Shown here piece after piece: positions 9,618-46,329 of a stretch of DNA of 64,000 nt. The translations under genes and the position numbers were made by a program. The notes below the pieces were generated by a model. That model ran no database searches, had not been told where the DNA came from, and saw only the letters and a list, made by a program, of their open reading frames with translations. This DNA is from Mobula hypostoma (taxonomy: Eukaryota), in assembly GCF_963921235.1 (NCBI RefSeq), contig NC_086097.1:43030001-43094000 (forward strand). The letters run 5' to 3'. Position 1 is the first letter of the stretch, and each line of letters opens with the position of its first letter.

Positions 9618-9713
9618 ATGGCAGAGGCCAACATGAACTGGGTGGCGGAGGAGAGGAGCGGCCACTGTGCTGTTTTGGACGGATGCTACCTGTATGTTTG
9701 GGGTGGCTATGTG
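9618..9713 (+). CDS. KLHDC1: KLHDC1 first coding exon, upstream copy (exon 1a): MAEANMNWVAEERSGHCAVLDGCYLYVWGGYV
   Basis: ATG at 9618 (GGAATGG), 32 codons, then GTG|gtaagt phase-0 donor. Closely matches the vertebrate KLHDC1 N-terminus as I recall it (MADSQLFCVAEERSGHCAVVDGNFLYVWGGYV). Lies in a CpG-rich island. Confidence 0.93.
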
Positions 9714-11041
9714 GTAAGTTGTCCGCTGTGGCCTCCCACTCCCTATCCGGGAATGTAAACATAGCCTGGTTCTGACATTACAGTACAGTATTGTAATGTC
9801 ACATAGTGTGCACCTGTCCTCAGCGCCAGCGACTTCTGGGCAACTTGCTGAATACTTAGCTACTTTAACTGAGAACTGAGGGAAGCAGACGGTTTCATGT
9901 CGTTAGTAATATTGACAGGCAAACTAATGATATGCAGAACAGAAGAAAAGAAGTGACATTTAGAAATAAGGAGTCTTGAAGTTAAGATGTAAGGCACCTA
10001 AAGAATGGGAAAATTAGTCAGGAATCCAAGAGTAAGAAAGTCATATTTAAAATGTTTATTTTTCAGTGAGAGTCTTCTGATAGCTTTTGCATAATGGAGC
10101 ATCCGTTGGAATCTGTATTTGAAGAAATTAGGAGGAAACAACTAAGAGTTGTCTGAAACGATTAAACCAGGGGTCCTCAACCTTTTTTGCACTGCGGACC
10201 GGCCGACCGGGGGGTGGGGTTGTCAACGGACAAGAGTAGCAGTCAAATGCGTTTCCCCAAAAAGACTACAATGACCATGAAGCCTTGCGCGTGTACCAGT
10301 GCGCATGCGCATCGTGACCTGCCGATTCCTCCCACCAGCCAATCCTTTTTGGCGATTCTGTTCGGGGGGTGGGTGTTGATCACTACTGGAATATAGGCGA
10401 TAATGGGTAATACACTCAATTTTGTTTCTAAACGAATTTAATATTAAACACACAGCGCATATTTTCCTCGCATGAATATAGTGATAAGTCAATTATCAGG
10501 GGAGCTTGAAGTAAGTGTTGAACAAACTTCCAGTAGAAATGGTAAAGGCAGGTTCGAAATTATCATTTAAAGAAAAATTGGATAGGTATATGGACAGGAA
10601 AGGAATGGAGGGTTATGGGCTGAGTGCAGGTCGGTGGGACTAGGTGAGAATAGCGTTCGGAACGGACTAGAAGGGCCGAGATCGCCTGTTTCCGTGCTGT
10701 AATTGTTATACGGTGACTTATAAGTCAATAGCATCATAACATTTTTAGTAACATTTGGATATTAAACACACAGCACATATTTTCCCCGTATAGATATATA
10801 AAATCATTGCAACACACCAATATCGCTGAATCAGTGGGAACCCTGGGCTTGTTTTCCTGCATCAACGCGGTCCTATTGAGGGGTGGTGGGAGACAGCGAT
10901 ACTCGAATGGGTTCCTTATGTCCAGTCTATTCCGCAGTTTAGTTTTCGTTGCATTCATTGCAGAAAATTCCGCTTCGCAGAAAAATGTTGGAAATGAAAG
11001 CAACGTTTTCAGTGCTTTCGTGGCTATCTCAGGATATTTAG

Positions 11042-11259
11042 AAACACACATCAAAGTTGCTGGTGAACGCAGCAGGCCAGGCAGCATCTCTAGGAAGAGC
11101 TACAGTCGACGTTTCAGGCCGAGACTAGTCCTGACGAAGGGTCTCGGCCTGAAACGTCGACTGTACCTGTTCCTAGAGATGCTGCCTGGCCTGCTGCGTT
11201 CACCAGCAACTTTGATGTGTGTTGCTTGAATTTCCAGCATCTGCAGAATTCCTGCTGTT
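11042..11259 (+). mobile_element. Palindromic Penelope-derived insert containing a hammerhead motif, nested in the hAT element
   Basis: Inverted arms; TSD TC(A/G)GGATATTTAG (11029-11041, 11260-11272). Confidence 0.85.
11127..11164 (+). ncRNA. Minimal type I hammerhead ribozyme motif (Penelope-type)
   Basis: AGUC-CUGACGA-AGG(GUCUCGG)CCU-GAAA-CG-UC^GACU: stem I AGUC/GACU, intact CUGANGA and GAAA cores, stem II AGG/CCU, palindromic ACGU in place of stem III, GUC cleavage triplet. Confidence 0.7.
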
Positions 11260-11992
11260 TCGGGATATTTAGCCTTGACTTTGATCCAAAATGCTGACAG
11301 AGATGTTATGTCAAATAGTAATTCAGCCCGTCGTCATTTGCAAGCTCGAGGAGTTGATCTCCTTCCCACCCTGACACGGATGACGCGCGGGTCATCATCT
11401 CGCATGCGTAATGGCTGATCAGTGGCCGTGACAGGGAATGAGGAAAGGTGCAGCCGACTCTTATCGCCAAATCATATCGTTTCCTCTGTGGCCCGGTGGT
11501 TGGGGACCGCTGGATTAAACAACATATTTTAAAATGTGAAACAAGAACTCTGACCTTGCTCTTACCTAACACATTACATTTAATCTAACACATTCACTTA
11601 TTTTAACTTATTTATCCTTTCTTTTTAAATCTTATTTATCCTGAAGCCTTTTCATATCCTTCTTCCTGTTTTGTATAACGGGGAAAATAAAAGTCATCAA
11701 AGATTGTGAATAACTTATCTATAACCCTCAATGCTCCCAGCCAACCAACTTAAGTAAAGACACGATTTTTACTCAAATTCCATGTGCTCTGCTATATTTG
11801 ATAATGGCTCCTGTGTCAGCCATTAACCAATCTAAGCACATCAACATCCATTTGTTCCCTTATTTGCTCTACTAGGCGTAGCTTTAAAGAGTGGATTAGT
11901 AAAATTTATTTTCTTCATGTAAATGCGTGCTGGCTGCTTAATTTTTTTTTATCTCTGGGCATTTTGTTATTATGACCTTCATAATAGATTCT

Positions 11993-13386
11993 CAGACATC
12001 CCACCTCTCCTGGGAGTTCCGGGAGTCTCCCGCATATCGATAGCGGCTCCCTGATGCCCACAAATTATATACAATATCCTGGAAATCGATTATTTAGAGA
12101 GGGAGAGGGGAAACAAAGAAAGAAAATGAATGAATCCTGCTTGATCTCTCTTTCTGCTAAGTAGACCTATCAGTTTTCTCTGTGGGCGGGCTTTACAGTC
12201 AACCTCTCTCTCTCTTCCATATTCCATCAGTTCAGTTACTGTCATCTGTAATGACGCTGAAATCATCCGGACAACTGTTGGTGATGAAGTACAAAAGCCT
12301 GGCGAAGAAATTCCCAAGGCTGATGGTGACAACCTGACTATGCGAGGCTGTCCTATACGGGCGGGGCGCGTCGGCGTCTTAAAGGGGATTAGAGCGGGGT
12401 TTAAATTGGAACGAAATTCCAAAATTGTCCGCTAAGACATCTTTAAAAACGCGCTCGCAGCAAGCAAGTTCTTCAGGGTTTTTTTCCTGAAACACTTCCA
12501 CTTACAGGTACATCGAAGCCCGCAATGGGCTGGGTTTAAGCGAAGCCGTTTTCAGAAGAAAAACCGATTTTAATAAATACCCAGCCCACACCGAGGTCTC
12601 GTCATTAGGACAGCGAACTGTTTACCAGTGCTGCGCACTTTATATGCAATTTGAATTACACTTTATTAAATAATATGGTAATATATTGTTTTATGTGGTG
12701 TGCATGATATATGTATTGTGGCTACACCGTGGTCCGGACAGAGGTTGTTTCGTTTGTGGACAATCAGCCAGATGACAATAAACTTGAACTTGAAGATACA
12801 GAACTTCTAAATCACTCATTTAAAATCCCCCATTTCGATGTAAAAAAGTAAGTTCTGATCCCGACTATTGCAGGCAATGTGTGTGTGTGACTACGGACGT
12901 ATATGCGATCGAACATTGTCTAAATGGACGTAAAGCGACGCACACCTGTAATAAGGATACACCTTATGCTTTTATTTCTTTTAGGGACCACAACATATTA
13001 GGGAGGCTAAGCACAGGGAAGGCTGCTCAAGTATTTCACAGTTCTTTTCAGCAGAAAACCGAAGTCTGACAGAGAAGGTCACTAGAGCTGAGGTGTACTT
13101 TACATCTTTCATCGTTGAGCATAACCTGCCATTCCAGGTGTGTAAGCACAGAGGCAAGCTATTCAGGAAAATGTTTCCTGATTCAGAAATAGCAAACAAC
13201 TATGCCTGCTCATCAACCAAAACAGCAGCTATTGTGAACATGGCACATTAAGACAGAATTCAGAAGTCAGCTATCTCACAAAACACTTGTGAATCTGATG
13301 TCTTGCAAAATTAACAGATTCATTGACACAGACTGCTATGAGGTTGAGATCTCCCTGAAATGAGTTTTTGCAGGGTGGGATGTCTG
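11993..13386 (+). mobile_element. Internally deleted hAT-like DNA transposon with 13-bp TIR and 6-bp TSD
   Basis: TIR CAGACATCCCACC / GGTGGGATGTCTG; TSD GATTCT; remnant KVTRAEVYFTSFIVEHNLPF...KLFRKMFPDSEIANNYACSSTKTAAIV at about 13075-13240. Confidence 0.82.
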
Positions 13387-16300
13387 GATTCTGCCATTTT
13401 CTCAGGACTGGTAGCTAGGTTGGTGGTTTACTGTCATTCCTTTCTTCATCTCCCCACCCTATTTCTTTAATAGGGTTATATTTTCCCTCTTTTAATCTGC
13501 AGGAACCATCTGAGAATATATGGGAATTATAAAATTTTGAAAGATGATAATCATTGCATCCACTATTGATATAGCTTGAGATATATGAACTTTTAGTACA
13601 GTGTAACCAATGTATAACCAAGTTTCCTTCATTTCTGGTTCTTTCTCATTCTTTCTTGGTATTTCTGGTAGTTTTTTCTTTTTCTCAAAGGTAAACAAAG
13701 TATTTATTTAATTTCTTTGCTGTTTCATTACAACCCTTTACATTTTCTTGCCTCTATCACAGCCATGCATTTGGCATTACTGGTCTTTTGTTTTATGCAT
13801 TACAGAAGTTCTTGCAGTCACCTTTCCCCCTTTTTTCATGTGTCTTGCCAGTTTATTCTCTTTTTCTAATTTTCCTTTAGTAATTTCTTGGCCCTACTTT
13901 GCTGAGTTCAAAAACAGCCCCATTCCTCAGGCCTACTGCTACTTTCAGCAATTTTATAAGCCATGTATTTCCTTGGGAACAAATATTGCTAAATTTAACT
14001 TATTTTTAACTTGACAAGAATTAACCATTGTGTTACATCTATTGTTTTATCTGCGAGTCACTAAGTTTTCCCTATTTAGAAAAATAACATGGCATTCTTA
14101 GCGCTCATAAATGGCAAGCCCAGTACTTAATGTCCATGATTAATCATCCTTGAAGATGATTGTCATTGGTGTGTTGAACCAATGCAATTCTGAGGACAAA
14201 GGTATTATGGACATTGCCTTGAAAAAGTATTCAGCCCCTGCAACAATTTTCACATTTTACTGTCTCATTTTCTAAATTTAAAATATATTGAAATAATATT
14301 TTTGAGCGAATATACAAAAGATTGTGCATCATGTCAAATCAAAAGAAAAATTCCAAAACCTGACAACAATTTACTAAAAATTAAAAACCAAAGTGGTGAG
14401 ACTGGAAAAAGTATTCATCCCCTTTGTAATTACTGTACTAACTTTTCTCAGGTGCAATATGCTGGACAGTATTACCTTACAAAATCACCCAATTTGTTGG
14501 TGTAGAAAATTGGAGGCTTGTCTATTTTCAATGAATTCATAAGAATAAATGTCCTATCTCTCTGTAAAGTCCAACAATATGGTAGATTTTTGACAGGCCA
14601 AACCAAAATGAAGACAAAAGAGCATTAAAGACTATTTAGGGAAATGATAATAGAGAAGCACAAATCTGGGGAAGGGTACAGGATCATCTCAAAGGCACTG
14701 AACATACCCCGGAGCTCAGTGCAGTCCGTCATGAAAAAGTGGAAAAAATATGAAGCTACAGTCACACTGCCTAGGCCAGGCCACCCCTCAAAACTTAGTC
14801 AATGGAGAAGAATGACACTTGAAAGAGAGGCTACGATGTCACCAACAGTCACTCTGAGTGAGCTGCGGATGTCAGTGGCTGCAACTGGAGATGAAGTTCA
14901 TGACTCCACAATCTCTGTAAGACCTTGCACAGAAAGAGCACTTATGGAAGAGAGGTAAGGAAGTAACTCCCTGGTTTAAAGAAAAGCATACCCTTACCCA
15001 TGAAGTCATAGGACCTGCTGTAAAGAAGTGGTGAGACTAAAGTGGAACTTTTTGGCCTCAATGCTAAGCAGTACGTGTGACATAAATCTAATACTGCACA
15101 TCAGGTAACACCACCCCTACTGTAAAATGTGGTGGAGTAGCATATTGCTATGGGGATGCTTGTCAGCAGCAGGGACTAGAAATCTGGTCGGGGTTGATGG
15201 GAAGATGAATGCTGCTAAATACAGGGAGATGCTGGATATAAACCTGCTGGCCTCTGCCAGAAAGCTTTAACTGGGGAGGAAGAACAAACCAAAGCACACT
15301 GTCAGCAACCACAGAGTAGCTTCAAATGAAGAAAGATGATGTCCTTGAGTGGCCCAGTCAGAGTCCTGATCTGAACCCAATTGAACATCTCTGGCAAGAT
15401 TTCAAGATTGCTGTCCACCATCACTCCCCAACTAATCTGGCACAGCTCCAGCAATTTTGCAAAGAAGGAATGGGCAATCCTGCTCCATCATGTTGTCCAG
15501 AACTTATAAAGACTTATCCAAAAAGACTACTTCTGTAATAGCTGCAGGAGGTAGTTCAAGCTGAGCAGAGGAGGATGAATACCTTTGAACTGCTGACATT
15601 TCAGTTTTTGAATTTCTAGTTTTTCAATTTTCCCTGGTTTTTTTGGGCTGTACTCTGGGTGGTGGGGGGAGGGGGTGTGGAAGGAGAATGTGATTCACAA
15701 ATAAAAATTCTCAGTTAAATTGATCAAAATCCCTGGTTTAATACCCATTTATGTGAACAAAGGGTTGTGGGGCTGAATACTTTTTTGAAGTACATTTATG
15801 TCACCGTATACCATCCTGAGGTTCATTTTCTTGCAGCATACTCAGTAAATCCATAATCATCACAATCAATGAAAGACTACAGCAACTAGAGTATTCAACC
15901 AGTGTGCAGAAGACAACAAACTGTACACATACAAAAAGAAAGAAATAATAAATAAATAAGCAATACATATCAAAAACATAAGATGAAGAGTCATTGAAAG
16001 TCAGTCCATATATTTGTGGGAATATTTCAATGATAAGGCAAGTGAAGTTGAGTGGTTATCCCTTTGGTTCAAGATCCTGATGGTTGAGGGGCGGTAACTG
16101 TTACCGAATCTGGTGGTGCGAGTCCTGAGGCTCCTGTACCACCTTCCTGATGATGATAGCGTGAAGAGAGCATGTCCTGGGTGGTGGTGGGGAGGGGGGG
16201 AAGATAAAAGATGCTGCGTTCCTGTGACAGCATATCATGTAGATATGCTCAATGGTGGGGAGGGCTTTACCTGTGATGGGCTGGGCCATATCCACTACTC

Positions 16301-17788
16301 TTATCAGATTTTCTGTTCAAGGGCATTGGTGTTTCCATGCCAGGCTATGATGCAGCCAATCAGTATACTCTCCTCTACACATCTACAGAAGCTTGTCAAA
16401 GTTTTGGTTGTCATGCTGAATCTGTGCTCACTTCTAAGGAAGTAGAGGCACTGCTGTGATTTCTTCATAACTGCACATGTGTTGGGCCAGGAGAGGTCCT
16501 CCAAAATGTTAACATCGAGGAATTTAATGTTGCTGACCCTCTCCAACTTTGACCTTCTGAGGACTAGCTCATGGACCTCTGGTTTCCTTCTCCTTGGTCT
16601 TGCAACATTGAGAAAGGGGTTGTTGTTATGGCACCACTTAGCCAGATTTTCAATCTCCATCGTGTGTGCTGATTCATCACCACCTTTGGGGTTTCAGCCT
16701 ACAACAGTACATATTCAAGTTACCGTCTTTGATTCGGCCGACTAGTGGTGTCGTCAGCATACTTGAATGTGTCATTGGAGCTGTGCTTAGCCACACAGTC
16801 ATACGTGTACAACAGGGGCTAAGCACACAGCCTTGCAGTGCACCTGTGCTGATAGAGATTGTAGAGAAAATGCTATTGCCAATCTGAACTGACTAGTGTC
16901 TGCAAGTGAGGAAATCGAGGATCCAATTGCACAAGGAAGTGACGAGGTCAAGGTCTTGGAGTTGTGGTCAATAAGGAACATCCTTATGTTTGTATCTTTG
17001 TTGATCAGATGTTCTAGGGTTGAGTGAAGAGCCAACAAGATGGCATCTGCTATGGACCTGTTGCTCCAGTTTTCAAATTGGAGCAGATCCAAACTGCTTC
17101 TCAGGCGGCAGATGATATGTTTCATCTCCAACCGCTCAAAACACTTCATCACTGTGGGTGTAAGTGCTACTGGACGATAGTCACAGAGGCAGGTTACCAA
17201 GTTTTTCTCAGGCACTGATATAATTGAAGCCTGCTAGAAGCAGGTGGGTACCTCAGACTGCCAAAGTGAGAGGTTAAAGATCTCAGTGAACACTCTTGCC
17301 AGTTGATCAGCACAGGATTTTAGTACTTGGCCAGGTACTCCATCTGGGCTGGATGCTTTTTGTGGTTTCACCCTCCTGAAGGCTGCTCACACATCAGCCT
17401 CAGAGACTGAAATCACAGGATCATCAGGGGCTTTGGGAGTATGTGATGGTTCCTGCATGTTTTGACAGTCAAAGTGAGCACAGATGGCATTGAGCTCATT
17501 AGAAATCAAAGTCCTGTTGTCACCAGTGTTGCTTGATTTAACTTTTTACGCAGCACAATCCACAGACTCAGAGCAATCCTGTATCTCCTCCTCTGCTCCC
17601 ACAGCACCTTTTTGTTGTCCTAATCTCCGGAGTGTTGTTCTTTAGCCTCTGCCTGTATCCAGGTAGGAGAAGGGCTGCCAAGTGATCCAATTTACTGAAA
17701 TGTGGCCTGGACATGGAACAGTAGGTACTCCTTATCTTAGCATAACAATGGTCTAGAGTGTGGGGGCCTTTGGTGCTACAGGTTATAT

Positions 17789-18040
17789 AGGGAAGGTACG
17801 TCGCATTTCTCCGGTTAGCGGACGATTTCCCACCACGCCTCTCTGACGTAGTGGGGAACCGCATACGAGGCAAGTTACAGCAGTGGTTTGCCATTACCTT
17901 CTGTTGGGTGAGTTTCCAAAGAGATCACCAGCATGTGACCCAGCACGGATGGAAAGCGTGCAGGGGAGCTGGCCGGATTTGAACTCAGGACCTTTTGCCC
18001 TGAAGTCTGGCACTGTTGCCATTACGCCACCAGCCAGGTC
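17789..18040 (-). mobile_element. tRNA-derived SINE with RTE-like body
   Basis: Minus strand: A box TGGCGTAATGG, B box GAGTTCAAATCC, RTE-like AGAAGGTAATGGCAAACCACTG; flanked by imperfect ACAGGTT(T)ATA repeats. Confidence 0.7.
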
Positions 18041-18360
18041 ATCACAGGTTTATACTGATGATAATTAGGCAGGGTTTTCTTCAAGTCTAGTTGAAGTCCC
18101 TGACTATAACTTGAAATGCATTAGGATGGATTGTATCTTGTTTGGCAATGGCATCGTGCAATATCTTAAGCATTTGATTATAGTCAGCCACTGGTGGTAT
18201 GTTACCTGTGGTCAGGATTATGGGGAGAGCTCTCTAGATAAGCAGAATGGACTGCATTTGATCATTAGGTGTTCAAGGTCGGGGCAACATGAGTTTATCA
18301 AAACTGCCACATTGGAGCACCACCGAGAGTCTTATCGTGAAACACACACCTCTTCCTTGA

Positions 18361-18516
18361 CATAGACATAGACATAGAAAATAGGTGCAGGAGTAGGCCA
18401 TTCGGCCCTTCGAGCCTGCACTGCCATTCAGTACGATCATGGCTGATCATCCAACTCAGAACCCTGTACCAGCCTTCCCCCCATACCCCCTGATCCCTTT
18501 AGCCACAAGGGCCATA
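18361..18516 (-). mobile_element. CR1 3' end with (CTATGT)n tail
   Basis: CATAGA repeats followed by the reverse complement of a CR1 3' UTR. Confidence 0.75.
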
Positions 18517-18581
18517 TTACCTTTTCTTAATCAGTAGTTTGGCTCATTCGGTAAGTCAAGAAGCCTTCTGGTTTGATCGCT

Positions 18582-19217
18582 GGGGGAGGAGAAGATGGCG
18601 GCGCGGCCACTCTTAAATGATATCGTATTTGTTAAATAGGGGCCGTGCACAATCCTGATTTGATGGAGACAGACGTGAGAAGCACAGAGGAACATCTGGA
18701 GAAACTTCTGAAATGCCCGCTTTGCTGCTGCTGCTACTGTGCGATCGAGAATTTCCAGAGGGGAAGGCCCCAAATCCTCGGCTTTGCCTATTGCCTGTTG
18801 CTGGGGCCGGGGTCGAAGCACTTGGCAAGGATGGTGTTCGGTGTCGGAAGGCTGGTTGGAGGCTCGAAGTTTTCGGACGGACTTAGTGGTCGGGTGTTTC
18901 CAGCGTGCTGCATTGGCAAGTTTGCGGTGCTGGAGGTTCATGGCAGGGAGAGTTTTTCTTCCTTCTACCATCTGTGTGAGATGATTGGACTTTCGAGAGA
19001 CTTTGAGACTTTTATTTTACCGCGCCCATGGTCTGTTCTTATCAAATTACGGTATTGCTTTGCACTGTTGTAACTATATGTGGTCTTTGTCAGCTTTTCA
19101 GTCTTGTTTGTCTTGTGTTTCTGTAATATCATTCTAGAGGAACATTGTATAATTTCTTAATGCATGCATTACTAAATGACAATAAAAGAGGACTGCATGT
19201 CCTCATAATCTAATCTA
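18582..19217 (+). mobile_element. Non-coding retroposon with AAGATGGCGG head and (TCTAA)n tail, copy 2
   Basis: Homologous to 1543-2175. Confidence 0.8.
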
Positions 19218-20539
19218 TCTGGTGTGCTGGAAGAAAGCCACATCTCACACATAGAACACACCAATATCTCATTTCTCTCCGATACAGCAGTCTTTCCCTC
19301 AATTCCTGAATTTTGTTCTCCAATGACTTTACATTTGCTAACAAGATGCTGGGTAGAGGGGGCCTCATCTCTCTGTGTTTCAGCCTGGTTTGGAGTCACC
19401 AGCCCTCCTGCCTCACTTCCAGTCATGGCAATGGCAATGTAAGGCACTGTAATAAGATAGTCTTGGAATTTGATTCTGCAGTTAAGTGAAGGTGGTTTGT
19501 AGCTTTAAGTGGAATTTGCAGTGTTGATTTTCTCTGTGCCCTCTATCCTTACAGATGGTATAGTTTGTGGACTAAGAAGAGATTATTGAAGAAACCTTGC
19601 CAGATTGATGCAGTGCATTTTTTTTCAGATAGTATTGCAGCCATAGGGTGGAGGTTGTAAATTTTCAGGGTTCAGAATAGGATCTCTTTGGTTGGGCTTT
19701 TTCTGAATGATATTTTTGTTTGGGGGGAAAATAATTTTTTTATCATCCCATGGCAGTTACTTTGAGACTGGATGCATGGCGTTGAAGTTCTACTTGTCCA
19801 TGAAGAAACCAACAAGGACAGCCTGCTTTTCAATCAGCCCAAGGTCTTTGTGCTTCTTTGAAAGTTCTCATAATGAGTCATTCTGTCAAATAGCTTTGAT
19901 AGTCTACTTGGGAACCATCTATCAGGATCCACTCTTGCCCAAAGGTCCTTCAGAGGTATTCTGTAAAGACTATTGTTTGACTGGTCAAAGTGTTTTCCTG
20001 TGCAGTTTTCTACAGTGGACAAGTCACTGTCCAACTGAATGGAACATCGCATGGCAATATGGTCCCATCCATCTGTTGTGGACTTGGAAAATCACTTGCC
20101 CAACTTCGTTGTCAACACAAACTAAAACTTAAGTCTCCTAATTCACAGAAGGAGAGGGAGGCCTATTCAGCTTACTAATATACCGTACCTGCTTCTTGCT
20201 TGTTTGAACAAAATACTTTATACATATTTAGAGATAAGCTGCAGCATCTTCACCAATGCACTGGCATTTAATTATTAATTCTTGACCAATCTAAGACAAG
20301 ACAGTGCATGATTAATGGCTGCTTCTTCCCTACACAATTTCATGTGCCTTACAGAACTGTGCCTCTGGTTGGAGCCTGGTGCAGTCACAATGACAGTATG
20401 CCTTTGTTGAGATAAGGCCTTTGATGTATGAGGCTCATTATATTCAATTATCACATTCCTTGAGGGGCCTTCTTATCTGCTCAAACCAGGTCTGACTGAC
20501 TTAGTGGAGTAAAAGAACACTTTTCATCTTGCTCATAAG

Positions 20540-35716: not shown

Positions 35717-37326
35717 CAATGCATTTAAAAAGTATTCACACCACTCCACACCTGGAGGTTTTCATGTTTTATCGTTTTACAACATTGAATCACAGTGGAT
35801 TTAATTTGACTTTTTTTGACACTGATCAACAGAAAAAAGACTCTTGTGTCAAAGGGAAAAACAAATCTCTACAAAGTGATCTAAATTTTTTTACAAGTAT
35901 AAAACAGAAAATAATTGATTACATAAGTATTCACTCCTTTAATATGACACACCAAATCATCACTGGTGCAGCCAATTAGTTTCAGAAGTCACATAATTAG
36001 TTAAATGGAGATCACCTGTGTAGAGTCAGGGTAATTCCAATAGATTGTAGTAAAAATACACCTGTGGTGGGAGGGTCCAACTGCTGCTAAGTCAGTATCC
36101 TGGCAGAAACTACACCACAAAGACAAAAGAACACTCCAAGCAACTCTACAAAAAAGGTTATTGAAAAGCACAAGTCAGGAGATGGATACAAGAAAATTTG
36201 CAAGTCACTAAATATCCCTTGGGCTACAGTTAAGTAAATCATCAAGACATGGAAAGAATATGGCACCTAGAGCAGGCCATCCTTGAAAATTGAGTCACTG
36301 TGTAAGAAGGAGACGAGTGAGGGAGGCCACCAAGAGACCTATGTCAACTCCGGAGGAGTTACAAGCTTCAGTGGCTGAGATGGGAGAGACTGCACATACA
36401 ACAACTGTTGCCCAGGTGCTTCACCAGTCGCAGCTTTATGGGAGAGTGGCAAAGAGAAAGCTACTGTTGGGAGAAAAAAAACTCATGAAATCTTGGCTAG
36501 AGTTTGCCAGAAGGCATCTGGGAGACTCTGAAGTCAGCTGGAAGAAGATTCTATGGTCTGCCGAAACCAGAATTGAGCTTTCTGCCCAACAGTCTAAATG
36601 CTATGTTTGGCGTAAGCCGAACATTGCATATGATCAAAAAAACATAATCTGTACTGTGAAGCACAGTGGTGGCTGCATCATGCTGTAGTGGTGCTTCACT
36701 GCAGCAGGCCCTGGAAGGCTTGTGAAGGTAGAAGGTAAAATGAATGCAGTAAAATACAAGGAAATCATGAAGGAAAATCTGTTGCAGTCTGCAAGTGAAC
36801 TGCGATTTGGGAGAAGGTTTGTTTTCCTGCAAGACAGTGACCCCAAGCATAAAGCCAATGCTACACAGCACCAAGCACAAAGCTTAAGAACAACAAAGTT
36901 AATGTCCTGGAGTGGCCAAGTGGCTGGACTTCAAGAGGACTGTTCACTCATGATGCACATGCAATCTGATTGAGTTTGAGCATTTTTGTAAAGAAGAATG
37001 GGGAGAAATTGCAGTGTCCAGCTGTGCAAAACTGATGGGGACCTGCCCACACAGACTCGGGGCTGTGTAATTGCTGCCAAAGGTGTGTCTACTAGATACT
37101 AACTTGATGTGGGTGAGTAATTAGGCAATGAATTATTTTGTGTTTAATAGTTGTAATAGGTTTAGACTAATATGTAGAAATTTATTTTCACTTTGACACA
37201 GAAGTCTTTTCTGTTGATCAGTGTCAAAAAAAGCCAAATTAAATCCACGGTGATTCAATGCTGCAGAACAATAAAACACGATAACTTCCAAAGGTGGGGG
37301 GGAATGAATACTTTTTATAGACACTA
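35717..37326 (+). mobile_element. Tc1-like transposon with about 200-bp TIRs and degenerate transposase
   Basis: Inverted ends AAAAAGTATTCAC / GAATACTTTTT with a TA left flank; WKKILWSAETRIEL, TVKHSGG and FLQDSDPKH motifs. Confidence 0.9.
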
Positions 37327-37764
37327 TGCTTCACACATAATGGATTCATTGCCTAATAGATTTAAAGGGCTCAGTTACATCCACTTGATGTGCCAGCTAA
37401 AGAGTGTTCATCTCAGACAAAATTTCTCAGAAAAAAAAATATTTTATGCAACAGAGTTGGTGTATAACTAGCAGCAATTTTTCATTTGTAAAATTGCTGT
37501 GATAGTAGCATAATGTGTTTGCATTGAACATTACAATGCAGTACAGGGCCTTCTGCCACAAAGCCATGTTGATTTCTTTTTAACCTACTCGCTTCTACAT
37601 AACCCTCCATTTTTTCTATTACCTGTGTGCCTATCCTCCCTGTACTTTCCTCCATTCACCTTAAAATTATACCCCTCTTTTTAGCCACTTCCACCGCGAG
37701 AAGATTGTTTGGCTATACACCCTGTCTTCCCTCTTATCATCCTGTAATAACTATTGGGTTATTT

Positions 37765-38452
37765 GGGGTCCGAGTCCATAGGACACTCAAAGCTGCTGCG
37801 CAGGTTGACTCTGTGGTTAAGAAGGCATACGGTGAATTGGCCTTCATCAATCATGGAGTTGAGTTTAAGAGCCGAGAGGTAATGTTGCAGCTATATAGGA
37901 CCCTGGTCAGACCGCACTTATAGAGTACTGTGCTCAGCTCTGGTCGCCTCACTACAAAAAGGACAGGGAAACCATAGAAAGGGTGCAGAGGAGATTTACA
38001 AGGATGTTGCCTGGATTGGGGCGCATGCCTTATGAGAACAGATTGAGTGAACTCGGCCTTTTCTCCTTGGAGCGACGCATGATGAGAGGTGACCTGATAG
38101 AGGTGTTCAGGATAATGAGAGGCATTGATCATGTGGATAGTCAGAGGTTTTTCCCCAGGGTTGAAATGGCTAGCATGAGAGGGCATAGTTTTAAGGTGCT
38201 TGGAAGTAGGTACAGAGAAGATGTTGGGTAAGTTTTTTTTATGCAGAGCGTGGTGAGTGCATGGAATGGGCTGCCGGCGGCAGTGGTGGCAGAAAAGATA
38301 AGGTCTTTTAAGAGACTTCTGGATGGGTACATGGAGCTTAGAAAAATAGAGGGCTATAGGTAAAGCCTAGGTAGTTTCAAGGTAGGGACATGTTTGGCCC
38401 AGCTTTGTGGGCCGAGAGGCCTGTATTGTGCTGTGGGTTTTCTATGTTTCTA
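37765..38452 (+). mobile_element. CR1 3' fragment (same subfamily as 6395-7496)
   Basis: Near-identical sequence and TTTCTATG tail. Confidence 0.88.
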
Positions 38453-38454
38453 CT

Positions 38455-40840
38455 TCCCATCCTCCTTTGCTCCAAAGAGAAAAGCCCTCGTTTGCTAAAT
38501 CTATCCCCTCTAGTCTAGACAGCATCCTGGTAAATCTCCTCTGCACCCTCTCTAAAACTTCTACATCCTTCTTAGAATGAAGCAGCCTGAACTGAACACA
38601 ATACTCCAAGTGTGGTCTAAACAGGGTTTTAAGGAGCTGCAATATTACCTCATGGCTCTTGAACTCAGTCACCTGACTAATGAAGTCCAAATTATCATAT
38701 GCCTTCTTAACAACCCTATCAGCTTGCATGGGTGCTTTGAGGGGTCTATGGACGTGGACCTCAAGATTCCGCTGTTCCTCCACACTGCCAAGAACCCTGC
38801 CATTGACCCTGTATTCTCCCTTCAAATTTGACCAACCAAAATGAATCATTTCACACTTTTTGGGTTGAATTCCTTCGGCTACTTCCCAACCCAGCTCTAC
38901 ATCCAGTCAATGTCCTGTTGCAACCTTTAACAACCCACCACACTACAAAACTCTATCAACCTTCAAGTCATTTGCAAACTTACTAACCTACTCTTCCAGT
39001 TCCTCATTCAAGTCATTGATTAAAGATAACAAAGAGTAGGGGTCCAAGAACAGATCCATTCAGAACACCACAGGTCGCCGATCTCAAGGCAGAATACTCT
39101 ACATCATCTACTACACTCTGCTTTATACAGACCATCTAATTCTGTATCCACAGAGCCAGGTTTTCCTGCATTCCATGCCATCTTTCTTTTTGAATGAGGC
39201 TACCATGGGAACCTTATCAAATATCTTACTAAAATCCATATATACCGCATCTACTCCTCTGCCTTCATTAATGTGCTTTGTTGCACTCAGGAAGAATTAA
39301 ATCAGGCTTGTGAGGCATGACCTGCCACTCACAAAGCTATGCTGACTATCCCTAATCAGACTGCTTTTCTAAATACTTGTAAATCCTGTCTCTAGGAACA
39401 CTCTCCAATAATTTGTCCACCACTGAATTAAGACTCACGGCTTTATAATTCCCAGGGTTATCCCTTCTTCCTTGAACAAAGGAAATAACATTTACCACCC
39501 TAAAATCATCTGGTATTACTCCTTGTGTCACCTTGTGATGGCACAAAGATCATCGTCAGAGGTGCAGCGATCTCTTCCTTTGCTTCCTATAATAAGCTGG
39601 AGTACACAGTAATACACAAAATGCTGGAGAAACTCAGCAGGCCAGGCAGCATCTAGTAAAATAGTATAGTCGACATTTCGGGCCGAAACCCTTCCCAGTC
39701 CCGTCAAAGGGTTTCGGCCCGAAACATCAACTGTACTTTTTTCACAGATGCTACCTGGCCTGCTGAGTGCCTCCAGTATTTTGTGTATGCGTTGCTTGAA
39801 TTTCCAGCATCTGCAGATTTTCTTTTGTTTGCGATTGGAGTATACAACATCTTGTTTGGCCCTGGGGACTTATCTAGCTTAATGTTTTAGCTCATCCTCT
39901 TTCTTAATGTCAGCACGTTCAAGCATATCGGCCTGTTTTATGCTGTCCTCACAAATGTCATGGTCTCTCTTTGGTGAATACTGAAGCAAAGTATTCCTTA
40001 AGGACCTCTCCTACTTCCTCCAACTCCAGGCACATGTTTCCCACACTATCCCTGATCGGTCCTACCCTCATTCTGTTCTTCATATATGTGTAGGTTTTCC
40101 TTAATCCTGCTCACCGAGGCCTTCTCATTGTACTTCCTAGCTCTCCTAAGTCCACTATTCGGCTCCTTTCTGCTACCTTGTAACACTCTAGAGCCCTGTC
40201 TGATCCTTGCTTCCTAAATCTGAAGTATGCTTCTTTCTTCCTCTTTACTAGATGTTTCACATTTCTTGTCAACCTTGGTTCCTTCACCCTCGTATCCTTT
40301 CCCTACCTAAATGGGACAAACCTATCCAGAACCCCTAGCAAATGCTTACTGAATAGCCTCTACATTTCTGTTGTGTCTTGCCCTGAGTGTCCCGATGAAA
40401 TGCTTTCCCATACCATCTGCCCCAATTCTTCTTCAAGGCTATATTGTAGCTCACTGTCTTCAAAATGCTCTTCCATTAAGGGATTGGACACCTGACCTGC
40501 TTCATTGCTTAGCATGTATCCAATATGGCCTCTCCTAGTGTCAGCTCAACTACATATTGTATCAGGAATACTTCCTGAACATGCCTAACAAATTCTGCCT
40601 CATCTAAACCTTTTGCATTAAGGAGGTCCAATCAAAATTAGGGAAGTTAAAATCCCTCGTGACAACAAACCTGTTATTTTTGCATCTTTCCAAAATCTGC
40701 CTCACTGTCTGTTCCTCGGTGTCTATTGCTATTGGGATTTTATAGAATATTCCCAATAGACTGATTGTTCCCTTCTTGTTTCTAACTTCCACCCACACTG
40801 ACTCAGTGCAGAATCTCTCCATGATGTCCTCCCTTTCTGC
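38455..40840 (-). mobile_element. Degenerate CR1 ORF2
   Basis: ORFs 38442-38849, 39352-39546 and 40604-40909 (ESVWVEVRNKKG, DFNFPNFDW). Confidence 0.85.
39609..39835 (+). mobile_element. Palindromic Penelope-derived insert with decayed hammerhead core
   Basis: Inverted arms, GGGTTTCGGCCCGAAAC, TSD TGGAGTA(C/T)ACA. Confidence 0.75.
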
Positions 40841-40844
40841 AGTT

Positions 40845-41080
40845 GAATGCCTTTGAATTGTGGTGAATCTGGAATTCATTGTCACGGATGGTTGTGGAGG
40901 CCAATTCATTTGGTATATTTTATATTTAAAGCAGAGGTTGATTGGTTCTTGATTAATACGAGCATCAGAGGTTATGGGGAGAAGTCAGGGGAATGGGTTT
41001 CAGAGGGATAATAAATCAGCCTTAATAGAATGGCAGAGCAAACTCTGGCCTAATTCTGCTCCTATGTCTAATGGTCTTAA
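40845..41080 (+). mobile_element. CR1 3' end
   Basis: Homologous to 7700-7935. Confidence 0.7.
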
Positions 41081-41185
41081 AAGGTAACACTTTAACAATC
41101 ATATTTGTCAGGAATTGTTATTTGGCAGTGTATATTTTTAAGTAGCACAAAACCTCCAAAAATAAACTGCCAATGGGACATTGAC

Positions 41186-41312
41186 TGGAGAAGGGTCTCG
41201 GCTTGAAACGTCGACTGCACCTCTTCCTAGAGATGCTGCCTGGCCTGCTGCGTTCACCAGCAACTTTTATGTGTGTTGCCTGAATTTCCAGCATCTGCAG
41301 AATTCCTGTTGT
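41186..41312 (+). mobile_element. Single arm of the Penelope-derived repeat
   Basis: GAAGGGTCTCGGCTTGAAACGTCGACTG...CCAGCATCTGCAGAATT, as in 11135-11255. Confidence 0.8.
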
Positions 41313-41404
41313 TTAAGTTTTAAGATCAATATATTTTCTTTCTTGATTTTTATTTGTATTGCCGTTTTGAGCAATAAATAACAAATCAATCGGGTCTAAG
41401 CAAA

Positions 41405-41800
41405 TTATAAGACATAGGAGCAGAATTAGGCTATTCAATCCATTGACCCTGCTTTGCCATTCCATCATGGCTGATTTATTATCCCTCTCAAACCCATTCT
41501 CCTGCCTTGTCCCCTTAACTTTTGATGCCCTCCTTGATTAACCAAGAACCTATTAACCTCCACTTTAAATATACTGAATGACTTGGCCTCCACAGCAATG
41601 ATTTACAGAATTAGCACCATCTTGCTAAAGAAATTGCTTCTCATCTCCTTTCTAAATGGATGTCCCTCTATTCTGAGGCTATGCCCTCTTATCCTAGTCA
41701 CCCACTATTGGAAACATCCTCTCCACATCCACTCCTATCTAGGCCTTTCAATGAGATCCCTCCTCATTCTTCTAAACTCCAGTGAGTACAGGCCTAGAGT
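41405..41800 (-). mobile_element. CR1 3' end
   Basis: Reverse complement of a CR1 3' UTR and ORF end. Confidence 0.7.
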
Positions 41801-42199
41801 ATATTTATCATGATGGAAATTCCTACTTGAGTAGATTTGCTAATATTAGCATGGCAAATGTAATGTAAAGAGTCAAGACTGGACCAGTGAATACTTAATG
41901 GTATTAAGTTTATTTAAAGAAATAGAAATTTCCTTCCATTAGTTTTTTTTTAAGTCCCCTCGCTACCAATAGTTCTTTTGCACCTCTACAAACTTGCATT
42001 TCAAATTCCCATATGAGAAGCAGGGAATGCGCATTGTTTAGGAACCCCATTCTATTTCTTCCCAAAATCAAATCCAAATGTGTTATTGGCCTGCCTCCCC
42101 CTTTCTAGAAACATCAGGATCATTGTCCCCTATTTGCCCCAGTGGAGGAGAAGGCTTGTGGCTTTTGTCTGAGGAAAATAATGAACGAACGAGAAAGAA

Positions 42200-42507
42200 G
42201 ATGCACGCGCAGCAAGCAGCAGTTCAACCGCACCACATTACCCGCCCCCGCCCCCGGGCGACCCGGGCCGGCACGGGCCGGCGAGTCGACTCGCGCGCCG
42301 GTTTTCCCTCTGCGATGCTGGCTCATGCTGCTCCACATTGTCGACGTCTGATTGGCCAAGACTCTCAAAGGCCGTCCTTGATTGGCTGCGTGGAGCATTG
42401 AGCGCGGGCTGAGGGAAATGCGGCTGCGATGGGTGTGATTGGGCGGTGGGGGGTCCGTCGACAATTGGGCAAGTGCGGTGGTGAAGAAACATCTGGCCTA
42501 GCTTAAA
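42200..42507 (+). promoter_or_regulatory. CpG-island promoter of exon 1b with four inverted CCAAT boxes and GC boxes
   Basis: ATTGG at 42351, 42381, 42438 and 42464; CCCGCCCCCGCCCC at 42241; GGGCGG at 42441; high CpG density. Confidence 0.75.
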
Positions 42508-42603
42508 ATGGCTGGATCCCAGTATTGGTCTCGGAGAATACAGGAAAATCATCACCACGCGGTATTTAGTAACGGATTCCTTTACGTATGGGGAGGTTAT
42601 GTG
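42508..42603 (+). CDS. KLHDC1: KLHDC1 alternative duplicated first coding exon (exon 1b): MAGSQYWSRRIQENHHHAVFSNGFLYVWGGYV
   Basis: ATG in strong context (AAAATGG), exactly 96 nt like exon 1a, ends LYVWGGYV|gtaagt (phase 0), no stops, directly downstream of a CCAAT/GC-box CpG island. Confidence 0.82.
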
Positions 42604-44019
42604 GTAAGTATTACTCATTTCGTCCAGTTAAAACTGTACCGGTGTCTTCTTGTGGGTCTGTTCATTTTTTAAAAATGTAACCTACTTTTCAATTGTGCCG
42701 TTTATATGTGTGCACCAGTATTGGAGAAGAGCACGTAAAGAATTGCAGGTCGCCGCCTTGTGAAACTTTACATTCGGGAATGGTTTACGGTGTTGCTCAT
42801 GAAGTCCTCCAGGTCTGCATCCACATCGTTTCTTTGTGGCGTCGATTTGTCTCAGAAAATTAAACCGTTTGATTTACGATGTTGCTTGAAAATGAGAGAT
42901 CAATTCGACTTGTATAGTTTGAACCGTGTGGTGTCAAAGTTCCATTGCAAAATGTCTTGAAGCAAGTTCATCTGTTGAGTTTGAAGTAAAAGAAAATCAC
43001 TTACGCGACGTTAAGTAATTGTATAGCGAGGAATCATAAATTTAGTCAAGGTTCTATAACTTGGGTCAGTACTAAATCATGAAAGAGCGCATTTTATTTC
43101 TTGCCAGACATAGAATTGGGTAATAAATTTGTCTATTTAAAGATGTTACTGTATTCATGTGTTAATGTAATTAAAACAGTTGAATCTGTTTGTGATGTCA
43201 TGAAAGGGAGCTTGTTATAGCAAACTGGTTAATATAAATATGAAAACTTTTTTTTCATACAAATATAGCAGTTCCTATATTGTAAAGTAATAATAAAAGA
43301 ATTGACTTTCACGTCTTCAGCCCTAAGTTTCAGAACGGCCTCCGATGAGAGCAAACAGATTATAAAATTTATACTTGTTTAATTTGAGTTAATATTGGTT
43401 TAACCATGTTGTAGAGAATCAATAAATGGTTTTTACCCATCAATTTGAGTGCTTATCCTTGTTGATAATGTTTTATATGTGAATAAAAGACCGAAATGTT
43501 GACATGCTTGTTACCTACCTTGTGGATTATTTTGCTTTTCCGTTCATGTCAGCATAGGTTTGCCCGCCCTTCAGGATTTTCCTTTAGATCTAGAAGTTAA
43601 TAATCTGGGCATTACTACAAGCAACTTTAAGCAATATTCTGAAAGCTGAAACGAAAGTGGGAAAGTGGTTATTTGGATTAGGCCGTTCTGGGAATTAACA
43701 GTATAAGAACATAAATAATAGCCACTTTAAATTATTTGACCCAAGCGATCATGTTTCATCTTTCCTTAGTTTGATCCCCGTGCATGCAGATTTTTTAAAA
43801 AAACTTGAGCCTCAAATTTTGAGACTGTGACCCTTGCATCTATTCCATCAAGCCCCTTAGGAATTTTGTCCGTTTTAATACAATCACTTCTGTCCTTCTA
43901 AGTTCAACCATGGGCCCAGTTCACTTAATTTCTATGGGGCAAGCCTCTCCAGAAATCAGTCTTCACTAAGTGAACCTTTACTGCATTCTATTTCATTATT
44001 TGGGGAATTGCATTCCAAA

Positions 44020-44860: not shown

Positions 44861-45810
44861 CTTAAGTTCTTGCATTGAAGTCTAATGTACCACTTGCTAT
44901 TGTGTACAACCCGTATTGTAATGCTGCCTGGTACCAACAAGAAATATGAGTACATTATACTATACTTGGTCCCTTCATCCCAATCATTGATAAAGCCCGT
45001 TGAATAGCTGGAGCACAGACATTAATCAATGTGGCACCTGTTGGTTACAACCTTTCAACCTAAAGTTATTCTTACTCTGCAACATCAAATAATTATTCCA
45101 AGTAGAATTAAATTAAAACCTTTAAGAATAAAATGGCTGACTTGGAGAGAACGTTAATTTTAAGTTGAGAGTATTCAATAGTTGCCAAAATAAAAATAAT
45201 TTTCTATCTGCAGCTCTACTTGTACAATATTTAATCTAGCCTAAGGACAGAAGATCTTGCATTTGCATTATTTTTAGGATTTCAGGATTTCCAAAAATTC
45301 TTTACAGGCAATGAAGTACTTTTGAATGCCTTAATAAATGATCTAAATGTGGTATAAAAATTCACAGAGCACAGACTCACAAAGAGTTTTCCTTCCAGTT
45401 AATTAGAAATTATAGTGTATGACCATCTTGTTTAGCCAAGGAAAATGCTATTGTAACTTAAATCACAATATTGTAAAATGTACTTCAGATTTGAAAGATT
45501 TACATCCTGAAGAAAGTTGATGTGGAAAATAATGATATATAGGTATAATTTATGCTAGTAGAAAACTACATAGGCAATCAGCTAAACGTGTGGAATTTTA
45601 CAATATGGAAGTTTTAATTATGATCAAGTGTGTATTAATTATCCTTAATAGAATGTTTCAGAAAATCTGATAAGTACCTGTTTATTTTGCATCTTTGCCC
45701 ATCTATCTAAACCAATAGCAATTCTTGAAAAGGATCATCTTGAATATTATACTCTGAAATTTTCATTCCCGTATTTTGTGTAGTACAAAATCAGCAATTA
45801 AAATTGAATA

Positions 45811-45920
45811 CAGGTTGAGTACTCCTTATCCAAAATGCTCAGGGACTGAAGTGTTTCGGATTTTGGACTCTGCTGTATAATGAGATAGCTTGGGATTGCC
45901 ATCATTTTTGACTCTGAATT
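45811..45920 (+). mobile_element. Tigger/pogo-type terminal fragment
   Basis: TA-CAGGTTGAGTACTCCTTATCCAAAATGCTCAGGGACTGAAGTGTTTCGGATTT resembles recalled Tigger4/Zombi-type termini; other end not found. Confidence 0.5.
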
Positions 45921-46258
45921 TATGAATTTACTTGTATTAAGTTTTTAATAAATTTTGAAGAACCACGCTTCACTCTAGTGTCTAGTAGATTAGAACATGA
46001 TTAACCATTTTGGAGTGAAGAACTGGGTTTAGCAAAGTTACATCAGACCCAACAACGAGCTGATTATCTTTCTGTTTTACTATTTTCACAGTATGCTTTA
46101 ATGGAAATTTTTAATGTTGCGAGTACATTTTTTGTTTCTCCTTCCCAAATTATTCTTTTGCTTTTTAAAAAAACATTGTTTTTGTTCAATACCAATTTAA
46201 TAATGAAAGATATAAGTTATCACAGTGATTATAGGAAGGTGTAACTTTTTTATTGCAG

Positions 46259-46329
46259 ACATATGAAAATAATGAAGTTTATTTACCCAATGATGAAATC
46301 TGGGTTTATGAAATTGAAAGTGGTGTGTG
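46259..46329 (+). CDS. KLHDC1: KLHDC1 exon 2: TYENNEVYLPNDEIWVYEIESGV(W)
   Basis: Acceptor ttttttattgcag, 71 nt, donor TG|gtaagc. Matches recalled KLHDC1 SIEDNEVYLPNDEIWTYDIDSGLW. In frame with either first exon. Confidence 0.95.

What the first reader, a model, noticed from the sequence alone, without database searches (positions are those of the whole stretch)
9618..46329. KLHDC1 has two paralogous first coding exons, each with its own promoter, feeding one shared exon 2
Seen in sequence: exon 1a (9618-9713) and exon 1b (42508-42603) are both exactly 96 nt, run from ATG to a phase-0 GTG|GTAAGT donor, sit in separate CpG islands about 33 kb apart, and join exon 2 (46259) in frame. They share 13 of 32 residues (M1, A2, H16, A18, V19, LYVWGGYV). 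Eight of the 11 degenerate codons for those residues differ synonymously (e.g. CTG TAT GTT TGG GGT GGC vs CTT TAC GTA TGG GGA GGT). This is the pattern expected of an old duplication kept by purifying selection, not of a decaying copy. I found no exon 2 copy between them. Established: I know vertebrate KLHDC1 as having a single such exon, and it is reported to be a cullin-RING ligase receptor for C-terminal degrons. Inference: a variable-first-exon/constant-body arrangement in which promoter choice swaps the first kelch blade of an E3 substrate receptor.
Basis: partly seen in the sequence, partly recalled or inferred. Interest (0 to 1): 0.88.

Follow-up and report, generated by a model that had tools for sequence, protein, structure and literature searches.

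The report
KLHDC1 has two alternative first exons
In this ray genome the ubiquitin-ligase receptor gene KLHDC1 has two related first coding exons that both join the same second exon, a pairing that gene annotations show is shared with sharks and a chimaera.

Summary
Exon 1a (9618-9713) and exon 1b (42508-42603) are both 96 nt. Each runs from ATG to GTG|GTAAGT, lies in one of the window's two strongest CpG islands, and is in frame with exon 2 (46259-46329). They share 13 of 32 residues, and 8 of 11 degenerate codons differ.

No other KLHDC1 exon lies between them. The 33-kb interval holds only transposon debris, and the genome has one KLHDC1 gene body.

The decisive evidence comes from relatives. 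Proteins with a 1b-type head joined to the same exon 2 are on record for Rhincodon, Narcine, Pristiophorus and Callorhinchus, and for an unnamed 1746-nt contig. Narcine, Pristiophorus and Callorhinchus also have 1a-type isoforms with identical bodies. Exon 1b matches other elasmobranchs at 26-30 of 32 residues. The pair therefore predates the shark/ray-chimaera split, and both exons are under purifying selection.

- Cartilaginous-fish annotation already carries both isoforms.
- The exon encodes a disordered tail plus two inner strands of blade 1, not a whole blade.
- No RNA evidence was obtained for this species.

This is a new member of a known kind: alternative first exons born by exon duplication. 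Any functional difference between the isoforms is inferred, not shown.

The parts
9301..9850 (+). CpG island around exon 1a, the putative distal promoter
   Evidence: GC 0.53, CpG observed/expected 1.02, 38 CpG, against a window mean of 0.36. Promoter function is inferred; there are no transcription-start data.
9618..9713 (+). Exon 1a, the canonical first coding exon (32 codons, phase 0 donor GTG|GTAAGT)
   Evidence: Sequence. It matches 25-30 of 32 residues in 10 elasmobranch KLHDC1 heads and 22 of 32 in Callorhinchus. It carries the motif VAEERSGHCAV..LYVWGGYV shared with bony vertebrates. It aligns to KLHDC2 residues 30-50.
42001..42650 (+). CpG island around exon 1b, the putative proximal promoter, with three GATTGG (inverted CCAAT) at 42350, 42380 and 42437
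   Evidence: GC 0.53, CpG observed/expected 0.88, 40 CpG. Three of the window's 42 GATTGG sites fall within 93 bp. Promoter function is inferred.
42508..42603 (+). Exon 1b, the divergent paralogous first coding exon (32 codons, phase 0 donor GTG|GTAAGT)
   Evidence: Sequence. The in-frame TAG at 42499-42501 directly precedes LK-M. It occurs once in the genome. It matches 26-30 of 32 residues in the 1b heads of Rhincodon, Narcine, Pristiophorus and a Logan contig protein. It forms a clade with Callorhinchus 1b at 100/100 support.
46259..46329 (+). Shared exon 2 (71 nt; acceptor ttattgcag|ACA; ends TG|gtaagc)
   Evidence: It is 100% identical over 24 residues to Hypanus KLHDC1. It follows both head types in relatives.
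63257..63376 (+). Shared exon 3, the last KLHDC1 exon inside the window
   Evidence: tblastn at 92-95% identity to residues 57-96 of ray and shark KLHDC1. The remaining exons lie downstream at G000:C1:43097048-43149492.
9714..42507 (.). Intron between exons 1a and 1b, with no KLHDC1 exon
   Evidence: No tblastn match with E below 0.1. Of the 43 ORFs in or next to the interval (most of those of 110 aa or more; several were left out) scanned against Pfam, 7 matched a family: RVT_1 (4), Exo_endo_phos, a Tc3 transposase HTH and ALKBH8_N. None matched Kelch. The window has no N.

Best explanation
KLHDC1 of this ray has two mutually alternative first coding exons that arose by duplication of exon 1 before sharks/rays and chimaeras split. 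Each has its own ATG and sits in its own CpG island, which I take to be its promoter. Each ends in the same phase-0 GTG|GTAAGT donor and is spliced to the single exon 2.

Transcription from the distal start gives the canonical protein with head 1a. Transcription from the proximal start, 3.7 kb upstream of exon 2, gives a protein with head 1b.

The two proteins share everything from residue 33 on. That includes the Arg-Ser-Arg residues that anchor a substrate's C-terminus and the C-terminal helices. They differ in the disordered N-terminal tail and in the first two beta-strands of kelch blade 1. The most divergent stretch is ERSGHC (1a) against QENHHH (1b) at residues 12-17. This is the repeat position that supplies the anchoring Ser in a later blade.

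Shown: the exons, their paralogy, the single gene body, conservation of both heads, and annotated isoforms of both kinds in relatives. Inferred: separate promoters, expression in this species, and any difference in substrate choice.
For: - Anatomy and codon pattern.
- One gene body.
- No DNA similarity between the two exon regions beyond 31 nt at the exon end and donor, which fits an old event.
- 1b-type heads joined to the same exon 2 occur in 9 proteins: Callorhinchus P0062, P0139, P0141, P0143 and P0144; Rhincodon P0150; Narcine P0158; Pristiophorus P0162; and Logan contig protein P0163.
- 1a-type isoforms of Narcine, Pristiophorus and Callorhinchus have bodies identical over 355, 266 and 364 residues.
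- P0163 is 354 aa on a 1746-nt contig, whereas the gene here spans about 110 kb. That contig must be intron-free, hence RNA-like (inference).
- Conservation: 24 of 32 positions are invariant among five elasmobranch 1b heads. The 1b clade has 100/100 support.
- Fold: AlphaFold models of a 1b isoform (P0150, pLDDT 81.7) and a 1a isoform (P0018, 83.9) have the same strands at 17-21, 24-28 and 31-34. The best structural match of the 1b model, the only one searched, is KLHDC2, with TM-score 0.83.
- R214, R219 and S248, aligned to the KLHDC2 anchor residues, lie in the shared body.
Against: - There is no RNA evidence for this species. The run search listed no holder on record as RNA, and read laying could not be done.
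- The isoforms in relatives are mostly automatic gene models. I could not see their transcript support.
- In the largest elasmobranch cluster only 15 of 63 members were listed, and none of the 15 had a 1b head. Hypanus, the closest named relative by exon 1a, has a single annotated protein with head 1a.
- The AlphaFold alignments contained 3 rows with a 1b head among 32, so the 1b head is modelled with lower confidence (pLDDT 55 against 69 for residues 11-20).
- The timing relative to bony vertebrates is unresolved. The tree rests on only 24 columns.
Confidence: 0.88

Rival explanations
1. These are two tandem KLHDC1-like genes. Exon 1a would belong to an upstream copy whose other exons lie between 9714 and 42507, and exon 1b would start a second gene.
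For: KLHDC1 and KLHDC2 are tandem paralogues, and KLHDC2-like exons follow KLHDC1 on the same strand here.
Against: tblastn with four full-length proteins finds no exon in the interval. Pfam finds no Kelch domain in the 43 ORFs in or next to the interval that were scanned. The genome shows one set of exons. In relatives the 1a and 1b isoforms have identical bodies.
Confidence: 0.01
2. Exon 1b is a conserved relic or a noncoding first exon in this species. The ATG and frame survive, but it is no longer used to make protein here, and only exon 1a gives KLHDC1.
For: There is no RNA evidence for this species. The nearest named relative, Hypanus, has only a 1a-type protein among the members listed.
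Against: The frame, the ATG with A at -3 and G at +4, and the consensus donor are all intact. It matches the whale-shark 1b head at 30 of 32 residues, which neutral decay would not leave. It keeps its CpG island.
Confidence: 0.08
3. The pairing is an assembly artefact: a misjoin or a collapsed or duplicated haplotype placing a second copy of exon 1 inside the first intron.
For: None found.
Against: The window has no N. The two exons are only 45 of 96 nt identical, and their flanks are unrelated.
Confidence: 0.01

Closest known systems
KLHDC1 of bony vertebrates, the CRL5 substrate receptor for Gly-Gly C-degrons (PMC7090344 seen in search listing and abstract only; PMC11568203 passages read)
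   Same: It is the same gene. Exon 1a carries the near-invariant VAEERSGHCAV..LYVWGGYV head. The six-blade kelch fold matches KLHDC2 with TM-score 0.83. The Arg/Arg/Ser anchor positions are conserved. A KLHDC2-like gene lies downstream.
   Different: Among the best 120 of 635 hits listed, plus the cluster members read, no bony vertebrate shows a 1b-type head. Cartilaginous fishes carry a second, divergent first exon. Latimeria has a different second head that does not group with 1b.
Automatic isoform models of KLHDC1 in cartilaginous fishes (Callorhinchus X1/X2, Rhincodon X2, Narcine X3, Pristiophorus X4)
   Same: They have the same two head types joined to the same exon 2. The window's exon 1b matches the elasmobranch heads at 26-30 of 32 residues.
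   Different: Those are unannotated-in-prose isoform records. My searches found no paper on KLHDC1 first exons or alternative promoters that describes the pair (titles and abstracts only). The Callorhinchus 1b head is 28 residues, not 32.
Variable first exon with constant body loci such as UGT1A and clustered protocadherins; alternative exons born by tandem exon duplication (recalled, no call)
   Same: Paralogous first exons, each presumed to have its own promoter, are spliced to shared downstream exons. They have the same length, phase and donor, as expected of exon duplication.
   Different: There are only two variable exons, and each encodes 32 residues that are part of one domain rather than a whole domain. 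The copies are 33 kb apart and unrelated outside 31 nt.

Membership tests
KLHDC1 orthologue (KLHDCX C-degron receptor) | Best similarity to KLHDC1 across the coding exons | tested here: met
   Exons 1a, 2 and 3 are 91-100% identical to ray KLHDC1. Thirteen exon matches cover residues 1-387 of P0018 in G000.
KLHDC1 orthologue (KLHDCX C-degron receptor) | Six-blade kelch beta-propeller | tested here: met
   Tested on relatives' full-length proteins, not on a joined product of this genome. AlphaFold pTM is 0.83-0.85. Foldseek finds KLHDC2 at E 4.8e-39 and TM-score 0.83.
KLHDC1 orthologue (KLHDCX C-degron receptor) | Arg-Ser-Arg carboxylate anchor (PMC11568203, passages) | tested here: met
   R214 and R219 are invariant and S248 nearly invariant in 32 sequences. 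They align to KLHDC2 FGGRYRDAR and GRSWH. They lie in the shared body, outside the window.
KLHDC1 orthologue (KLHDCX C-degron receptor) | BC box and cullin-5 binding; ubiquitylation of Gly-Gly-ended substrates | not testable with these tools
   Only C-terminal helices 342-352 and 366-386 are predicted. There is no binding test.
Alternative first exons on a constant body | Both exons are spliced to the same downstream exon | tested here: inconclusive
   Met in relatives: identical bodies in Narcine, Callorhinchus and Pristiophorus. Not tested by RNA in this species. Frames and splice signals fit.
Alternative first exons on a constant body | Each exon has its own promoter and transcription start | tested here: inconclusive
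   Two CpG islands and a GATTGG cluster before exon 1b. The 19 bases upstream of exon 1b's ATG are not pyrimidine-rich (by eye). There are no CAGE or 5' end data.
Alternative first exons on a constant body | Mutually exclusive use | not tested
   No protein seen carries both heads among the 188 proteins read, but no transcripts of this species were examined.
Exon pair born by duplication | Paralogy: same length, phase and donor, with significant residue similarity | tested here: met
   Both are 96 nt with phase 0 and GTG|GTAAGT. They share 13 of 32 residues. tblastn of the ORF holding exon 1b (42502-42669) against the first 42.4 kb hits exon 1a at E 3.5e-5. Synonymous-only change in the last 8 codons has P about 1.7e-4.

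The most novel reading that the evidence does not exclude
Promoter choice gives cartilaginous fishes a second KLHDC1 receptor with a different degron-binding funnel. Residues 12-17 (QENHHH in place of the near-invariant ERSGHC) sit at the start of the innermost strand of blade 1. In KLHDC2 blade 5 this repeat position carries the anchoring Ser269, and the paper names low-numbered KLHDC3 residues (16, 32, 34) as contacts with the degron; that these lie in blade 1 is my inference. The 1b isoform would then accept or reject different residues upstream of the C-terminal Gly-Gly. It would have been kept for that reason since before sharks/rays and chimaeras split (some 400 million years by recalled dating), while bony vertebrates lack it or lost it.
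Probability: 0.25. Interest if true: 0.65.

Novelty: new member of a known kind. Interest (0 to 1): 0.4.

Why it matters
KLHDC1 belongs to a small family of cullin-RING receptors that read protein C-termini. These receptors are being developed for targeted protein degradation. Here a conserved isoform pair changes only the first inner strands of the propeller, and it has been kept across sharks, rays and a chimaera. It is therefore a natural experiment on how blade 1 shapes substrate choice, stability or regulation. It also shows that the single-head picture taken from mammals does not hold for all jawed vertebrates. Beyond that, it is an ordinary example of exon duplication feeding alternative first exons, and public isoform models already contain it.

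Tried and rejected
- RNA evidence. The look-up of sequencing runs on 42440-42640 listed no RNA holder. Run X1 held 0.86 of 22 sampled words, and X2 and X3, from another organism, held 0.23. No junction could be examined.
- Searching with the exon 1b ORF among longer proteins found nothing at E <= 0.01 from 6 candidates. The search sees only 90% cluster representatives. The 1b isoforms were hidden inside clusters and surfaced through.
- Dating the duplication relative to bony vertebrates failed. The 24-column tree leaves the canonical heads unresolved (16 of 29 inner branches open).
- Latimeria's second head as an orthologue of 1b is rejected for now. It does not group with 1b and is 50% identical at best to canonical heads.
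- I looked for an upstream gene sharing the exon 1a island. ORFs in 1-9600 look like retrotransposon remains (RVT_1). No neighbour was identified.
- The search of earlier findings by sequence and by place gave nothing.
- Paper PMC10080726 is not held. Supplementary Fig. 9a of PMC11568203 (a KLHDC1 model) was not seen.
Full report
**What is in the sequence**

Exon 1a runs from the ATG at 9618 to 9713 and reads MAEANMNWVAEERSGHCAVLDGCYLYVWGGYV. Exon 1b runs from the ATG at 42508 to 42603 and reads MAGSQYWSRRIQENHHHAVFSNGFLYVWGGYV. Both are 96 nt and both end in GTG|GTAAGT. Exon 2 begins at 46259 behind a pyrimidine tract and CAG. It reads TYENNEVYLPNDEIWVYEIESGVW and ends at 46329 with a Trp codon split TG|G.

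Eight of the 11 degenerate codons for these residues differ. At the DNA level 45 of 96 bases agree, and third positions agree at 9 of 32, which is saturation. The proportion of synonymous differences is 0.91 and of non-synonymous differences 0.44. In the last eight codons (LYVWGGYV) there are five differences, all silent. Random substitution gives that result in about 1.7 of 10,000 trials. So the protein sequence of this stretch has been held while silent sites turned over.

DNA similarity between the two regions is confined to 31 nt at the exon end and donor.

The two exons sit in the stretches 9301-9850 (CpG observed/expected 1.02) and 42001-42650 (0.88). The window mean is 0.36. These two are the strongest, by both CpG observed/expected ratio and CpG count, of the ten stretches that passed my thresholds. 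Three GATTGG sites lie within 93 bp, 66-158 bp before the 1b ATG; the window has 42 such sites in 64 kb. That GATTGG is an inverted CCAAT box is recalled, not tested.

**One gene, not two**

tblastn with full-length KLHDC1 proteins of rays and sharks finds only four exons in the window: 1a, 1b, 2 and 3 (63257-63376). No other match anywhere in the window reaches E below 0.1.

I scanned 52 long ORFs against Pfam. Of the 43 in or next to the interval (most of those of 110 aa or more; several were left out), seven matched a family: reverse transcriptase (four), an endonuclease/exonuclease/phosphatase domain, a Tc3-type transposase domain and ALKBH8_N. None matched Kelch.

The window is G000:C1:43030001-43094000. 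A six-frame search of the whole 3.48-Gb assembly finds one set of KLHDC1 exons from 43039618 to 43149492. More distant matches (37-59% identity) follow at 43178070-43191100 on the same strand, and I read these as KLHDC2. Exon 1b occurs once in the genome. The window has no N.

**Evidence from relatives**

A search with the ORF holding exon 1a returned KLHDC1 isoforms of Pristiophorus, Rhinoraja, Narcine and Chiloscyllium. In these the 1a-type head is joined directly to TYENNEVY.

A search with the 1b ORF found nothing. That tool sees only one representative per 90% cluster. A search with full-length Hypanus KLHDC1 gave 635 hits at E <= 1e-40, of which the best 120 were listed. Among them Callorhinchus milii isoform X1 (P0062) begins MAETSIIQENQHYAVFDAGFLYVWGGYV, a 1b-type head.

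Listing cluster members then gave 1b-type heads in several more records:
- Rhincodon typus X2 (P0150)
- Narcine bancroftii X3 (P0158)
- Pristiophorus japonicus X4 (P0162)
- an unnamed Logan contig protein (P0163)
- four more Callorhinchus records, including P0144, which a source names V9KXP0

That is nine proteins from four named species and one unnamed source.

The same species carry 1a-type isoforms, and the bodies after the first exon are identical: 355 of 355 residues in Narcine, 364 of 364 in Callorhinchus (P0144 against P0024), and the first 266 in Pristiophorus.

P0163 has 354 residues on a 1746-nt contig, whereas the gene spans about 110 kb here. That contig must lack introns, so I infer it is RNA-derived.

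Against this, in the largest elasmobranch cluster only 15 of 63 members were listed, and none of the 15 had a 1b head. Most of these records are automatic gene models whose transcript support I could not see.

**Conservation and age**

The window's exon 1b matches the four other elasmobranch 1b heads at 26-30 of 32 residues. Among the five, 24 of 32 positions are invariant. Exon 1a matches ten elasmobranch 1a heads at 25-30 of 32 and the Callorhinchus head at 22.

In a tree of the last 24 residues of 35 heads, the six 1b sequences form one clade with 100/100 support, chimaera included. The canonical heads of cartilaginous and bony vertebrates are unresolved, with 16 of 29 inner branches open.

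The duplication therefore predates the split of sharks and rays from chimaeras. That this split is some 400 million years old is recalled knowledge. Whether the duplication predates the split from bony vertebrates cannot be told. No 1b-type head was seen among the bony-vertebrate proteins read, but that survey covers annotated proteins only.

Latimeria has a second kelch-like head of its own (MEEKKGKPPGSPIPEHRESHFTVADGGCLYLWGGFR) joined to the same exon 2 as its canonical head. It does not group with 1b.

**What the exon encodes**

I made two AlphaFold models from 32-sequence alignments: a 1b isoform (P0150, mean pLDDT 81.7) and a 1a isoform (P0018, 83.9). They have the same strands at 17-21, 24-28 and 31-34, and a low-confidence tail at 1-15 and 1-11 respectively. 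Confidence for residues 11-20 is 55 against 69. The alignments held 3 rows with a 1b head among 32, which may explain the difference. The 1b model matches KLHDC2 structures best (E 4.8e-39, TM-score 0.83). No solved chain in the search bore the name KLHDC1.

The first exon therefore gives a tail plus the two inner strands and the Gly-Gly doublet of blade 1, not a whole blade.

Exon 1a aligns to KLHDC2 residues 30-50 and, more weakly, to the later repeats. From the alignment, by my own residue count, R13-S14-G15-H16 is the repeat equivalent of KLHDC2 R268-S269-W270-H271.

Passages of PMC11568203 say several relevant things:
- CRL5-KLHDC1 takes Gly-Gly-ended degrons.
- An Arg-Ser-Arg trio anchors the C-terminal carboxylate.
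- A model of KLHDC1 keeps that motif.
- In KLHDC3, residues numbered 16, 32 and 34 touch the degron. From the low numbers I take these to lie in blade 1; the paper does not say so.

In the proteins here the anchor positions (R214, R219, S248) lie in the shared body.

The stretch that differs most between heads, ERSGHC against QENHHH, replaces residues that are 90% or more conserved across the alignment (R13, S14, G15). The replacing residues are themselves invariant in five elasmobranchs. That pattern suggests a shifted function at the mouth of the binding funnel rather than loose constraint. This is inference; nothing here measures binding.

**How it most likely works**

Two transcription starts, one per CpG island, give two mRNAs that differ only in the first coding exon. 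Each first exon is spliced to exon 2 through an identical donor. The upstream side of exon 1b has an in-frame TAG at 42499-42501 and no pyrimidine tract (by eye). It is therefore unlikely to be used as an internal exon after 1a.

I put the probability that both exons are real, used and kept by selection at 0.88. I put the probability that the isoforms differ in degron choice at about 0.25.

**Known or new**

The arrangement is present in public isoform records of at least four other cartilaginous fishes. Two full-text searches, KLHDC1 with 'first exon' (5 papers) and with 'alternative promoter' (3 papers), gave no title or abstract on this subject (I did not open those papers). A review of the KLHDC subfamily mentions isoforms only in passing (passages).

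As a kind, paralogous alternative first exons on a constant body are familiar. I file it as a new member of a known kind, of moderate interest.

Noticed in passing
window 9694-9714 (+): The heads MFGVAMW (Mobula birostris X2) and MFGVVMW (Pristis pectinata X3) are exon 1a read in another frame from an internal ATG and joined to exon 3. These are exon-2-skipping models. Exon 2 is 71 nt, so skipping it shifts the frame. Protopterus X2 (MTTLCTFGAVMW) looks alike.
   Followed up: partly
proteins P0027/P0148 against P0146/P0147/P0149 (Latimeria chalumnae): The coelacanth also has two kelch-like first heads on one body, with the first 241 residues after the head identical. Its second head does not group with the cartilaginous-fish 1b and may be an independent duplication of the same exon.
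   Followed up: partly
proteins P0024/P0145 (Callorhinchus milii 1a head): The chimaera's canonical head has changes at otherwise near-invariant positions (H16 to R; V27 to D, giving LYDWGGYI) and matches the window at only 22 of 32. Its 1b head keeps the strand residues. The canonical head may be the relaxed one in that lineage.
   Followed up: no
G000:C1:43178070-43191100 (+), about 84-97 kb beyond the window's end: Exon matches at 37-59% identity to KLHDC1 follow the last KLHDC1 exon by about 28 kb on the same strand. This is most likely the tandem paralogue KLHDC2.
   Followed up: no
window 56522-58711 (+) and 51464-53998 (+): Intron 2 holds a 730-aa open frame with reverse transcriptase and ALKBH8_N-like domains, and a second, broken copy of the same element upstream. 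Similar debris fills 1-9600 and the 1a-1b intron.
   Followed up: partly
proteins P0020, P0025, P0155, P0159 (Narcine bancroftii); P0023; P0156 (Heterodontus francisci): Further annotated first exons without kelch similarity are joined to exon 2: a 42-residue head MRQPSTRW... in Narcine, and the short heads MGTNFL and MLSSR. The 42-residue Narcine head (the only one searched) has no match in this window. The locus seems to collect minor transcription starts in gene models.
   Followed up: partly
window 42350-42442 (+): Three GATTGG sites lie within 93 bp just upstream of exon 1b, out of 42 in the whole window. A fourth ATTGG lies at about 42465.
   Followed up: partly
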